Shown in pieces: positions 11,106 to 59,313 of a stretch of 64,000 nt of DNA. The position numbers were made by a program, and so were the translations under genes. Under the pieces are notes generated by a model. The model saw only the letters and a program-made list of their open reading frames with translations. It did no database searches and was not told the DNA's origin. Source of the stretch: Octopus sinensis (lineage: Eukaryota); contig NC_043007.1 in the NCBI RefSeq assembly GCF_006345805.1, positions 63,922,001 to 63,986,000 of the forward strand, given 5' to 3'. Each line of letters begins with the position of its first letter. The first letter of the stretch is position 1.

Positions 11106-11302
11106 ATTATTATTTTAGTTCCTTTGTCAAAGCTCTTTTGTCACACATCCTGTGACATCCTTAGTGACTCACTATCCCATGTGGTATACCATAGAAAGAC
11201 AAAATGGAATAAACAGAACAAGAGGAGACATGTGGGATAGTCACTGAAGAGGTCACAGGATGTACGATGAAAGAGCTATGACAAAGAAACTAAAATAATA
11301 AT
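11106..11302. mobile_element. Mini Penelope-like element: inverted pair of hammerhead-bearing repeats
   Basis: About 70-bp inverted arms (11106-11178 vs 11234-11302), each containing a hammerhead core. Confidence 0.65.
11240..11282 (+). ncRNA. Minimal type I hammerhead ribozyme
   Basis: gtca-CTGAAGA-g gtcacaggatgtacgat-GAAA-gagc-TA-tgac; stem I gtca/tgac. A decayed mirror copy lies at 11126-11168 (-) with stem II gtcac/gtgac. Confidence 0.65.
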
Positions 11303-11995
11303 CATCATCATCATTGTTTAACGTCCGCTTTCCATGCTAGCATGGGTTGGACGAATGACTGAGGGCTGGCGAACCAGATGGCTGCACCAGGCTTCAATCT
11401 TGATCTGGCAGAGTTTCTACAGCTGGATGCCCTTCCTAACGCCAACCTCACCAAGAGTGTAGTGCGTGCTTTTATGTGCCACTGGCATGGGGCCAGTCAG
11501 GTGGCACTGGCAATGACCTCACTCGAATCTTTTACACATGCCACTGGCACAGGTGCTAGTAAGGCGATGCTGGTAACGATCACGCTCCAATGATGTCTTT
11601 TACGTGCCACTGGCACGGAGGCCAGATAGCCGCTCTAGCAATGATCACGCTCGGATGGTGCTCTTAATACCCTACTAGCACGGGGCTCAAGTGCCAGTAA
11701 TGCAACGCTGGTAACGATCACGCTCAAATGGTGCTTTTTAAGTGCCACTGGCACGGAAGCTGAATAGCCACTCTGTCAATGATCACACTCGTATGGTGCT
11801 CTTTGCACCCCACTAGCATGGATGCCAGTCATCAAATTTGATTTTGATTTTTGATTTCACTTGCCTCAACAGGTCTTCGCAAGCAGAGTTTTAGTGTCCA
11901 AGGAAGGAAAAGGTACGCATAAGTGAGCTGGTAACACCCCTGACATAGGCCACGAGATTATGGTCTCATTTGGCTTACCGTGCGTGAGAAGACCC
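11302..11995 (-). mobile_element. RTE LINE 3' UTR with ~65-bp tandem array
   Basis: RTE tail motifs, then repeated gtgccactggcac..gatcacgctc..atggtgc units. Confidence 0.8.
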
Positions 11996-12255
11996 AGCAA
12001 GCCAAATAATAATAATGATAATAATAATAATAATAATAATAATATTAATAATAATAATAATAAAGCTGAAGTGAAGACCAAATATATAGTGCATTGTTCA
12101 ACAGGTACTTATTTTATCAACCAAGAAAGGGTGAAATACAATGTTAACCTTGGCAGAATTTGAGCTCAGAATGTAGAGACAGATGAAATGCTGCTAAGCA
12201 TTTTGCCTGGTGTGCTAATGCTTCTGTCAGCTTACCATCTTCGTATTGCTAACTA

Positions 12256-13123
12256 TGAGGTGGTATCAAAAGGTTCCTGGACTAGTTTGTTTAATAAAAA
12301 ATAACTCATCTAAGTTCTAAGGTCATCTTCAAGACAGTTGCCTTGTGCAGCAATACACTGATCCAAGCATTCCTGTAACTTTTGGAATCTGGCCTGGAAG
12401 TTGTTTTCCATAAGTGAGGACCTGTGATTTGCTCTGGATCTTGACAATAGTGTTAAAACGGCACCTTTTGAGCTGTATTTTCATCCTGGAGAAGAGATGA
12501 AAATTCACAAGTGCTAAATCTGGTGAATAGGGTGAGTGCGGAAGTGATGCCATGTTGTTTTTGGCAGCAAAGAGGAGAGCTTGGTAACAGAGTGCATTGT
12601 CATCATGAAGAATCCAATTCTTCATGCACCGTGAATCCGGTCACTTTTGTCAAATGTCCTCCCTCAAACACTTCAAAACGTTGCAGTAGAACCCTCAATT
12701 AATGGTTTGGCCCTGGGGGACAAATTCTCAATGCACAATACCATATTTCTGGGGATGATGCTCATGGCAGATCTTCCAAGGACATTCTTCTGCTTTTGAA
12801 GTGCCCGTGCTACTCAAAACATTGTGTACGCCTTGTCACAGTAAGCTTGCTAAAGTATGCTCAATGTCTCTGTAGCCAACTTCCCAAGTTTAATGCAAAA
12901 TTTCATGTTGGCTCTTTATTCCTGTCCATGACAAAATCGCAGACTACGGGATACATGTGATCACAAAAACACAAATTTCACAACTTGTGAAGTAAGTACA
13001 GTGATGTCACTCAGCACACTGCCTCATGAAGGCCACAGCTAACTCTCACTGCATGCACAACCATGCACTGCCATCTGTTGGCGCACTACAGAACTAGTGC
13101 GGGAACTTTTTGATTCCACCTCA
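12256..13123 (-). mobile_element. Internally deleted mariner transposon
   Basis: TIRs tgaggtggtatcaaaaggttcc / ggaactttttgattccacctca with TA on both sides; minus strand LHDDNA..PHSPYSPDLA..FHLFSRMK. Confidence 0.9.
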
Positions 13124-13679
13124 TATTAAACTCACTCCTCACTATCTACTATGGTTAATTATATAATTTTCATTCATTAATTAAAATTTTAGGTTGTCTC
13201 TTTTGCCTTTCTTAACCAGAATTTGTCATTAGATAATGACTGTTGTCATCACTCAGTGTAATTTTAATTCAAATTGTTTGGCTTACTTACATTATATCTG
13301 CTGTTGCCCACCTCTCTATTGCATTTTCAAGCAGTAGGCACCCCTAGACATATTTCCTCAGTCATTCTATACATAATGTGTGTGTGAGAGAGAGAGAGAA
13401 AGTCACAGTATAGTTCCAAGAATACTTAACCTGATATCAAATTTAGATAATAACTATGATCAGATAATGAGGATGATAATGTTGACAATCACTTGAATTA
13501 TACTCTTAAATACCTTCTTTACATAGCCAAGAAAAAGCAAGAGTTCAAGTTGAGTCTTTTAGCTGTAAGTTTATGTACAATTATGTGTAATGATGTTTGC
13601 TGGCATTGCAATGTTTTTTTCTATTGTTTTTTTACCAGGTCTATTATGCTATAGTATGTATTCCCTCTTCATGTTGAAT

Positions 13680-56538: not shown

Positions 56539-56698
56539 ATTTATATTTTTATATATATATATATTATGATGTGAGAGCGTTAAACAGTGAAAAATATGAA
56601 TATGCTAAAAGCATGTTTGAACTTGTAAACAAGCCTTTCACTGTGTTTTGTCATGAAGAAAATTTCTTGCTGTAGACATATGATGTAAATATACCCAA

Positions 56699-56792
56699 AT
56701 CAGCTCACAGCACCACCTGTGAGATGCAAGCATTTCAGAGTAGTTATTTCCTCTTCAGTCACAGAAACCAGGCAGTGGTGCTGCAAGCTGAT
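56699..56792 (-). ncRNA. Extended type I hammerhead ribozyme
   Basis: atcagcttgcagcaccac-tgcctggttt-ctgtga-CTGAAGA-gga aataactac tct-GAAA-tgcttgca-TC-tcacag-gtggtgctgtgagctgat; core intact, 6-bp plus 18-bp stem I. Confidence 0.85.
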
Positions 56793-58860
56793 AAAAGAGA
56801 CAATTTCTCTTATGTTTTTCCAGTCAACATAGGTTGGCTGGTAGTACAAATCGATGGTACATCGTAATTACGATGAGCCATCAAATATACACACACACAC
56901 ATACACCAAGTGTAGTGTATAAGTCTCTGTTTTGTGTTTGTCTTCCATGCCTCGACAACTAGCGTTGGTCTATTTTACTTCCCTGTAACTTAGCAAAGAA
57001 GACTGATAGACTAAGTACCAGACTTGGAAAAGATAATAAGTTCTGGGGTTGATGTGTTCAACTAAACCCTTCAAGATGGGATGGTGTCCTAGCATGGCTG
57101 CAGTCTAATGACTAAAACCAGTAAAAGAATAAAAGCCATTTGTGGATGTTGAGACACTGCACTAACACTTTTGTCCAGATTTGTTTGTTTTTTATTTATT
57201 TATCCTTTTTGCAGATAAGTTAGATCATTTAGATATGTGATACTTGATATGATAACTTGATTTTCATTTGATTAGTAGTCTATTATTGGACCTCCAATAT
57301 TTGTTTGCACACAAACTGTCTGGAAGCTTAAAATACACAAGGAATAACTTGATCAGAATATATGACACATTCAGTGGAGGAAAGGAATATTCCACATTTT
57401 ACAAATTTGGCACAAAAGCCATTTAAAGTTTTCCTAACATATTTTATGAGTTAGTGAATTATTTACAGGCATGGCTGTGTGGTAAGAAGTTTTCTTCCCT
57501 ACTACATGGTTCCAGGTTCAATCCCACAGCATGGTACGTTAGCCAAGAGTCTTCTATTACAGCTTTGGGCCAACCAAAACTTTGTGAGTGGATTTGGTTG
57601 ATGGAAGTTGAAAAAAGTTAATCGAGTGTATGTGTGTGTGTATATAATGATGATAACAATAATAATAATAAAAGCAAAATTCTGTCTATCCATCTGGGTC
57701 CCCTATATCTCAGTCTACATTTGCTCTACATAGACATATTATACCATTTTGGAATCAGGATGATCTCAGGATTGAAAATCTGACCATTTGGTTCTTGACC
57801 ATCCAGCATTGGGATCTGATTTAAAAGCATTTGGATTGCTATTTCTAACAGCTAAAGCTCCAGTTGATTCACACCATCTTGGTGACATTTGTCAGATGAT
57901 GTCAGAGGTCAAGAGGGTGATAAATGATATTCACTTCATTAATTTTACATTAAGATAAGAACATTGGGACAAATTGGCCAACAGTTGGAATTCGACTTGG
58001 TACTGGAGCAGTAGAATGATTGCATTACAGAATTAATTCTCATTTGTCCTTAATTTCTGATCAAACACCACCAGGGCATATAGTCATTATAGACGTATTG
58101 TAGTCGTGCTATTTAGCTCTCTTTAGTTTGGTGCTGCAAGCCCAATTAGCCTTCCACATGAGCTAGCTTAAAAGTCTACCCCCATGTAGACTTTTAAGCT
58201 ACTATTAAATAAATACGAAAAGAAACACACTCTAGATTTAGAGCAGTAATACTTAGAAGGTTGACTGCTATGGCCGGTCAGAGAATGATAATTGGTTTTG
58301 CACTTATAATATAGCTGGTTTATAAATTTGATTATGAGAGTGTGAAAGTGTAAACATTGATTGGAAACTGCATATTTTTTTTGTAAAATTAATGTAACTT
58401 CACAACACATCTAAAAAAAAACAGATAAAAGGAACCTGCAAAATAGAAAACAGGATAAAAGTTCATCACATACTTACGCCAAACAAACTTAATTATCAAA
58501 TGGCTATTTGTCTCCATGTTTAGAATCCTCCATGCCCATCCCTTACTTGTCTTTTACTGAACAGCCATCTTAAATTTCAGTGTGAAAGAGTATGAATGAA
58601 ATTTAATTTTTTTTGTTTTGCATGGATAAAGCTGAAGTTTTAAATATATGTTTGAAATAAAAAATGTAATTTTTGAAATTTTGTTGGATATTCCATTATT
58701 TCACTGAATGCTTCGTATATGTCTTGGGTGCCTAAACGAATTAGTAAAAGCATAGTTCATGCTACCAAGCCATGCTCACTTGCGAGTGATGACTATGACT
58801 TTTCTTTTAACGTATATATATATATAATATATATATTATATATATATATATATATATATA

Positions 58861-59313
58861 GTAATACTAAGTGATTAAGGGTTTAGCAACGATTTGCCTC
58901 ACCACACACCGAGTTTAGAAATAGCAGTCAAAGAGTTATAGCTATTCTTTCTACTAAAAGGGAGATCTCAGTAAAACCACAGCACTTAGAAGGCAAACGC
59001 AGGTAAGAGAGAAAGAAATGACGACAATCATACAATATTAAGTCACCTACGGACGTACGTTTCGAAATTAAGTTTTAGGAAAGCATAAGAATTAGATAAT
59101 TATGTCTTACCCAATTATTTTTCTCATCAGCGTAGGACACTACAATTATGAATAATTGTATATTAAATTTGGAGGTACTAGAAGACATCACCTCAACTCA
59201 TAGAATGAGAGCATTAACAATATTGCTTTCACCAAATATATATATATATATATATATATATATATATATATATATATATATATTTGGTGAAAGCAATATT
59301 GTTAATGCTCTCA
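58861..59313 (-). mobile_element. Non-autonomous Penelope-like element in (TA)n with hammerhead and terminal fold-back
   Basis: Flanked by TA runs; hammerhead 59046-59136; perfect palindrome 59206-59313. Confidence 0.6.
59046..59136 (-). ncRNA. Type I hammerhead ribozyme with long loop II and palindromic helix III
   Basis: cctacg-CTGATGA-gaaa..52 nt..tttc-GAAAC-gtac-GTC-cgtagg; predicted cleavage between 59052 and 59051. Confidence 0.85.

What the first reader, a model, noticed from the sequence alone, without database searches (positions are those of the whole stretch)
11126..59136. Five distinct hammerhead ribozyme loci in one 64-kb window
Seen: CUGANGA...GAAA...UH cores with complementary helices at 11240-11282(+)/11126-11168(-), 16992-17037(-)/17955-17992(+), 55074/55661(+), 56699-56792(-) and 59046-59136(-), with unrelated flanks. 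Established: type I hammerheads mark Penelope-like pseudo-LTRs and non-LTR retrozymes. Inference: this genome hosts a diverse, poorly annotated community of self-cleaving retro-RNAs, possibly all mobilised by Penelope RT.
Basis: partly seen in the sequence, partly recalled or inferred. Interest (0 to 1): 0.85.

Follow-up and report, generated by a model that had tools for sequence, protein, structure and literature searches.

The report
Hammerheads from Penelope elements and retrozymes
The five hammerhead ribozyme motifs are real and each belongs to a different high-copy mobile element: two are broken ends of Penelope-like retrotransposons, and three are small non-coding "retrozymes" that likely borrow a Penelope-type enzyme to spread; only one copy here still looks intact.

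Summary
Observation confirmed. A type I hammerhead descriptor finds exactly these 5 loci (0.06 per shuffle); Rfam finds none. All five are interspersed repeat families. B (17 kb) is the 3' end of a Penelope/Poseidon element; A (11 kb) is the 3' end of an old Neptune-like element. C, D and E are ORF-less, circularly permuted units of about 355, 345 and 580 nt: non-LTR retrozymes. The window copies of A-D carry decay mutations; only E is intact. E is young (453 exact core sites, tandem trimers). It inserts at (TA)n (37 of 40 copies) and shows Penelope-type inverted arms with an extra tail on one arm only (15 of 16). A young Neptune-like family with open RT-endonuclease frames and the same (TA)n junctions exists in the genome and is the likely helper; this is inferred, not shown. 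The density is ordinary for this genome (7 hits in 400 kb of fixed-interval sampling). Cleavage and circular RNA were not tested. Known kinds, new members; the Penelope-helper idea is already in print.

The parts
11079..11185 (-). Family A inverted arm with dead hammerhead copy (11126-11168; G5 and G12 changed)
11186..11301 (+). Family A direct arm: 3' UTR of an old Neptune-like PLE; hammerhead 11240-11282, C3 at 11244, predicted cut after 11278; weakened helix II
11302..12004 (+). Unrelated interspersed repeat (SINE-like, many copies in the window) inserted into family A
12047..12092 (+). Continuation of family A after the insertion
16950..17212 (-). Family B inverted pseudo-LTR arm; minimal hammerhead 16992-17037, C3 at 17032, helix III of one pair plus a palindromic CG, predicted cut after 16997
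17214..17774 (+). Family B ORF remnant: RT thumb end and GIY-YIG endonuclease of a Penelope/Poseidon element, one internal stop
17775..18062 (+). Family B 3' UTR with dead hammerhead copy (17955-17992; G12 changed, 16-nt deletion)
55062..55891 (+). Family C retrozyme, about 1.6 units of ~356 nt; hammerheads at C3 55074 (weak helix I, predicted cut after 55110) and 55661 (C3 changed)
55277..55495 (+). SINE-like repeat inserted in C, flanked by a 12-nt duplication (55265-55276 and 55496-55507)
   Evidence: sequence
56560..56870 (-). Family D retrozyme, about one permuted unit with deletions, ending in (TA)n; hammerhead C3 at 56758, long helix I 56700-56792, predicted cut after 56723
58860..59212 (-). 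Family E retrozyme, 0.6 of a ~580-nt unit, 3' end fused to (TA)n at 58813-58860; intact hammerhead 59046-59136, C3 at 59130, long helix II, palindromic helix III, predicted cut after 59052

Best explanation
The window holds five independent insertions from five repeat families: two are 5'-truncated ends of protein-coding Penelope-like retrotransposons (A Neptune-like, B Penelope/Poseidon), and three are ORF-less, circularly permuted retrozymes (C, D, E) whose multimeric RNA is predicted to self-cleave and circularise and is likely copied into the genome by a Penelope-like enzyme. For E, the likely helper is a young Neptune-like family ('N') whose endonuclease would nick (TA)n; both nicked strands would prime reverse transcription at UA-rich sites in the RNA, one at about unit position 267 and the other at about 370. 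That would give the direct arm plus inverted arm with a one-sided tail, and, when the enzyme runs round the circle, more-than-unit copies and trimers. Shown: family membership, ORFs, permutation, junctions. Inferred: cleavage, circles, and the identity of the helper. Window copies A-D are likely dead.
For: B: homologues carry RT plus PLE domains (31 hits); a 551-aa open RT-endonuclease copy is 83% identical to the window copy and has the same hammerhead. A: 5 of 13 copies fetched for long 5' extent have Neptune-like ORF remnants on the hammerhead strand (L201, L202, L203, L210, L213). N: 907- and 914-aa open frames, 97.4% identical to each other, with the CX4CX2C linker absent from B; 2,306 exact sites of its ribozyme word; 8 of 14 visible ends fused to (TA)n at one internal site, the other 6 run on into a tail beyond the fetched stretch. 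E: 453 exact 22-mer sites vs 0 control; 11 of 40 copies exceed one unit; 3 of 3 fetched arrays are trimers of 574-584 nt; units within an array are 96.2-100% identical vs 86.7-97.8% between arrays; longest stop-free stretch 48 aa; circular fold z -4.6 and -6.1; 37 of 40 3' ends and 30 of 40 5' ends at (TA)n vs 6% background; 17 of 40 have inverted 5' arms, and 15 of 16 scorable pairs use opposite end sites (Fisher p 0.003). C: 18 of 29 wrap round the unit, 13 of 29 inverted, 12 of 29 end at (TA)n. No PLE ORF is joined upstream of any of 40 E, 29 C or 18 D copies. One-sided tails and inverted arms are described as PLE hallmarks in PMC8557442 (section 6).
Against: No cleavage, circle or transposition was tested; 8 of 9 predicted frog retrozymes did not cleave in vitro in 10.64898/2026.07.22.740005. 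C, D and E show no significant DNA similarity to the 3' UTR of N or B (best E 0.05), so the helper link rests on junctions and co-occurrence only; other TA-targeting PLE families were not surveyed. D ends at (TA)n in only 1-2 of 18 copies and wraps in 3 (strict) to 8 (loose) of 18. In C, 5 of 7 scorable inverted copies show the one-sided tail and 6 of 13 could not be scored (read). One of three C units folds weakly (z -1.3). Upstream flank seen was 1.5 kb for C, D and half of E, so a rare ORF-linked parent is not excluded. One array is less alike within (96.2%) than the closest pair of arrays (97.8%).
Confidence: 0.72

Rival explanations
1. C, D and E are not free circles but terminal repeats of unseen ORF-bearing PLE families; the short copies are truncated products of long linear tandem transcripts.
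For: Family A looked ORF-less in the first 45 loci and showed an ORF only when I searched with its 5' edge. Frog retrozymes match PLE pseudo-LTRs.
Against: Sequence upstream of the hammerhead in C, D and E is the unit's own downstream part, not new sequence; all 40 E copies map wholly to one unit; trimers exist; no linked ORF in 87 copies.
Confidence: 0.12
2. The retrozymes are mobilised by another enzyme, such as the RTE-type LINE at 60991-63369 or a different PLE family, not by family N.
For: No sequence similarity to N; an RT-bearing LINE lies in the window; D rarely ends at (TA)n; Penelope/Poseidon family B also has a near-intact copy.
Against: E lacks a fixed 3' end or simple-repeat tail, and its one-sided tail and inverted arms match PLE anatomy. 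N is of similar age and uses (TA)n.
Confidence: 0.13
3. The motifs are chance matches or non-functional look-alikes.
For: No Rfam match; 7 of 8 single-copy folds are not significant.
Against: 5 hits vs 0.06 shuffled; the majority sequence of each of the five families has an intact core and paired helices.
Confidence: 0.03

Closest known systems
Non-LTR retrozymes of animals (PMC7229834; coral, mussel, axolotl)
   Same: Type I hammerhead in a short ORF-less, low-GC (37-44%), self-paired unit; dimers and trimers; C and D match the ~350-390 nt mussel size.
   Different: E is ~580 nt, above the 170-400 nt given for invertebrates, has a 60-nt helix II, and is mostly dispersed sub-unit copies at (TA)n; circles not shown here.
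Minimal hammerheads of Penelope-like elements (PMC4209133)
   Same: A and B: extra nucleotide after A9, 6-bp helix II, 4-5 bp helix I, minimal helix III, opposite-strand pairs 100-1000 nt apart.
   Different: A has a GAGC insert in helix III; its young sister family N has C instead of A at position 9.
Neptune (and Nematis) PLE clades; Penelope/Poseidon clade (PMC8557442)
   Same: C-terminal GIY-YIG endonuclease; CX2-5CxxC linker present in N and absent in B; inverted arms; one-sided tail; microsatellite targets.
   Different: Clade not fixed by a tree; Neptune and Nematis cannot be told apart on the linker alone.
Retrozymes as non-autonomous PLE derivatives (bioRxiv 10.64898/2026.07.22.740005)
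   Same: Same proposed partnership; monomers dominate and are dispersed.
   Different: There the evidence is co-occurrence and pseudo-LTR homology in vertebrates; here it is shared integration junctions, with no homology to the two PLE families examined.

Membership tests
Type I hammerhead | CUGANGA / GAAA / UH core with helices I-III, open helix I | tested here: met
   5 loci pass; family majorities intact; 3 partner copies fail
Type I hammerhead | Self-cleavage after H17 | not testable with these tools
   needs transcription assay
Type I hammerhead | Compensatory helix changes | tested here: inconclusive
   one compensatory pair in helix I between A and N, plus one broken pair; within-family changes look like decay; no formal covariation test run
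Penelope/Poseidon PLE (B) | RT followed by C-terminal GIY-YIG, no linker zinc finger | tested here: met
Penelope/Poseidon PLE (B) | Hammerhead in pseudo-LTR; inverted 5' arm | tested here: met
Neptune PLE (A, N) | RT, CX2-5CxxC linker, C-terminal GIY-YIG | tested here: met
   N: (Pfam RT and GIY-YIG below cut-off); A remnants 64-70% identical to N
Neptune PLE (A, N) | RT groups with Neptune rather than Nematis | not tested
   no reference sequences in session
Non-LTR retrozyme (C, D, E) | Short unit without ORF, LTR or linked RT | tested here: met
   (E)
Non-LTR retrozyme (C, D, E) | Tandem or more-than-unit copies with a type I hammerhead per unit | tested here: met
   E trimers, 11 of 40 over one unit; C 18 of 29; D 3-8 of 18, no intact dimer seen
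Non-LTR retrozyme (C, D, E) | Strongly self-paired unit | tested here: met
   z -2.5 or lower for 7 of 8 units; PLE UTR control +0.9
Non-LTR retrozyme (C, D, E) | Expressed as circular RNA | not testable with these tools
   only assembled contigs of runs not on record as RNA were available

The most novel reading that the evidence does not exclude
Family E and family N are a living parasite-helper pair. A 580-nt ribozyme circle with no sequence kinship to its helper captures the Neptune-like enzyme only by offering two UA-rich priming sites that mimic the helper's own end and tail. Meanwhile the helper has fixed a non-canonical core (C at position 9, 2,306 exact sites) and may have given up cleavage. 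This would name the enzyme that moves an animal retrozyme and show that such circles can be free riders rather than PLE derivatives.
Probability: 0.3. Interest if true: 0.72.

Novelty: new member of a known kind. Interest (0 to 1): 0.45.

Why it matters
Which reverse transcriptase moves animal retrozymes is proposed but not shown (PMC7229834 discussion; 10.64898/2026.07.22.740005). This genome offers a young retrozyme and a young, open-frame PLE with matching junctions, so the question becomes directly testable. It also shows thousands of hammerheads that Rfam misses: 7 hits in 400 kb extrapolate to tens of thousands genome-wide (rough estimate). The window itself is an ordinary sample of that landscape.

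Tried and rejected
Rfam scan: no hammerhead match. Type II and III readings: only weak chance-like hits. Expression: no RNA holder listed; contigs of three runs guessed to be RNA and one unlabelled run cover the E unit, but depth follows the unlabelled run, a loose end runs into (AT)n and no start or end could be seen, so this is no evidence either way. Pfam did not recognise the B fragment or the 551-aa B frame; homologue search did. Family A as a palindromic MITE or a circle: rejected, since it has a fixed 3' end near +190 and extends into an ORF. A young C subfamily: only 2 exact 27-mer sites. Kinship of C and D: weak (best E 2e-4 near the ribozyme; none between single units). PLE-like hits near 6 of 87 retrozyme copies were on the other strand, downstream, or a LINE. 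Two script counts were wrong and redone: wrap counts, flank counts (corrected). The 35-of-40 'wrap' for E is an artefact of where the unit was cut and the C wrap count is inflated by TA flanks; neither is used. Earlier scan notes: none found. Duplicate or overlapping loci were dropped before counts (L011, L033, L038; also the window's own and duplicated loci).
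Full report
Setting. The window is G000:C11:63922001-63986000 in a 2.72-Gb assembly, 35% GC and rich in microsatellites and SINE-like repeats. From size and repeat content I take it to be an octopus; this is recalled, not from a call.

Observation. The extra nucleotide after A9 was allowed only after a stricter scan; it is a described feature of PLE hammerheads (PMC4209133). Rfam returned no hammerhead among 127 matches. Forty 10-kb stretches taken at fixed intervals gave 7 hits, one of them doubtful and two in one tandem pair, against 0.15 shuffled: about 1.1 per 64 kb. 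The window is rich, not exceptional.

All five are repeats. DNA searches gave 851 to 6,100 first-look candidates per locus, 40 scored each. Against the family majority, the scoring copies of A, B, C and D all have C11.1 changed to U, and two partner copies have G12 changed to A; this pattern fits CpG decay (inference). Intact CUGANGA plus GAAA remain in 15 of 39 A, 9 of 17 B, 11 of 28 C, 9 of 17 D and 18 of 19 E copies.

B (16950-18062). The frame between the two hammerheads matches RT-bearing PLE proteins at 52-62% (31 hits). Longer copies show RT motifs running into GIY-YIG; one has 551 open codons and the same ribozyme on an inverted arm. It lacks the linker zinc finger, which points to Penelope/Poseidon by the scheme in PMC8557442. 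The window copy is a truncated end plus inverted arm.

A (11079-12092). Copies share a 3' end near +190 from C3, and inverted arms stop near +135 or earlier (direct arms were selected to be long). No ORF was seen in the first 45 loci. A search with the 5' edge and 13 fetched copies gave 5 with ORF remnants on the ribozyme strand. One remnant, used as query, found a young family N: 150 scored matches, several in frames above 880 aa. Two fetched copies have 907 and 914 open codons, are 97.4% identical, and carry RT, a CX4CX2C linker and GIY-YIG. N's ribozyme is a sister of A's but reads CUGAUGC in 15 of 16 fetched ends that show it (20 fetched) and at 2,306 exact sites. I found no position-9 variant in section 8 of PMC3088659, but its figure was not visible. 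Of 14 N ends seen, 8 fuse to (TA)n at one internal site and 6 continue into a tail.

E (58860-59212). The best copies are 92-98% identical to the window; 453 exact 22-mer sites, 0 in the control. All 40 copies examined map wholly to one 577-nt unit; 11 of 40 exceed one unit; 3 of 3 fetched arrays are trimers. Units within an array are 96.2-100% alike, between arrays 86.7-97.8%, as expected from repeated passes round one RNA, though a tandem donor would also give this. The unit has no frame above 48 codons and folds far better than shuffles (z -4.6 to -6.1). 3' ends cluster at unit positions 246-273 (29 of 40) and 359-377 (9 of 40); 37 of 40 abut (TA)n against 6% background, and one of the three misses runs into an assembly gap. 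Of 17 copies with an inverted arm, 16 could be scored and 15 use one site on each arm (p 0.003). PMC8557442 describes a 30-40 bp tail on one end only as a PLE feature; E's is about 100 nt.

C and D. Units are 337-358 nt and old (72-89% identity). C wraps round its unit in 18 of 29, has inverted arms in 13 and ends at (TA)n in 12. D wraps in 3 to 8 of 18, has inverted arms in 7 and ends at (TA)n in 1 to 2, the window copy among them. No PLE frame joins any of the 87 C, D, E copies upstream, within 1.5 kb for most and 3.6 kb for 20 E copies.

Mechanism. Inferred: a more-than-unit copy is transcribed; paired hammerheads with palindromic helix III cleave as dimers (model in PMC4209133); monomers are ligated to circles (shown for coral, mussel and axolotl in PMC7229834); a PLE endonuclease nicks the target and both strands prime copying. 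For E the match in target, anatomy and age favours N. Against this, no DNA similarity links C, D or E to the UTRs of N or B, other PLE families were not surveyed, and nothing was assayed. Public runs gave no usable expression evidence.

Known context. Hammerheads in PLEs, retrozymes in molluscs and the PLE-helper idea are all in print. Searches for octopus plus hammerhead ribozyme (5 papers, 4 listed), octopus plus Penelope plus Neptune, and cephalopod plus retrozyme (one work each) showed no description of these families in the listings or in the passages read; Repbase and Dfam could not be checked. What I read: 10.64898/2026.07.22.740005 parts 1-3 of 5, supplements not seen; PMC4209133 parts 1-2 of 4; PMC7229834 passages and sections 14 and 17; PMC8557442 passages and section 6, its supplement of families not seen and may list these PLEs; PMC3088659 passages and section 8.

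Verdict. Real, correctly interpreted in outline, and made of known kinds of element. The added value is the E-N pair as a concrete test of retrozyme mobilisation. Interest 0.45.

Noticed in passing
L215:349-3653; G000-wide: Young Neptune-like family N with open 907-aa frame; its hammerhead has C at position 9 at 2,306 exact sites. Activity unknown.
   Followed up: partly
L035:2818-, L007:2086- and 1395-, L068:1106-, L141:17+ and 490+, L147:8065-, L154:4783+, L167:1548-: At least eight further hammerhead sequence types in flanks and sampled DNA; L141 is a tandem pair 473 nt apart; L035 and L154 have long helix II like E.
   Followed up: no
L164:2137- and 2529+: Inverted pair of hammerheads with the U3-A8 core variant.
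   Followed up: no
window 13900-14000 (-): U6 snRNA pseudogene (Rfam 64.8 bits) followed within about 15 nt, on the same strand, by a SINE-like repeat; possible chimera.
   Followed up: partly
window 60991-63369 (-): Fairly intact LINE with RT (Pfam RVT_1); RTE-like by recalled motifs.
   Followed up: no
window 32143-32637 (-) and 53102-53575 (-): Mariner-type transposase fragments.
   Followed up: no
window 59205-59315: Perfect ~30-nt inverted repeat around an (AT)n run, directly at the 5' edge of the E copy.
   Followed up: no
window 58160-58205: Strong hairpin of unknown origin.
   Followed up: no
window 52551-52650: 100-N assembly gap.
   Followed up: no
L092 (G000:C11:62789023-62789923): 99% identical copy of the B locus about 1.15 Mb away, likely a segmental duplication or haplotype duplicate.
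   Followed up: no
L012, L028, L177, L189: Fragments of other, more distant PLE families near retrozyme copies but not joined to them.
   Followed up: partly
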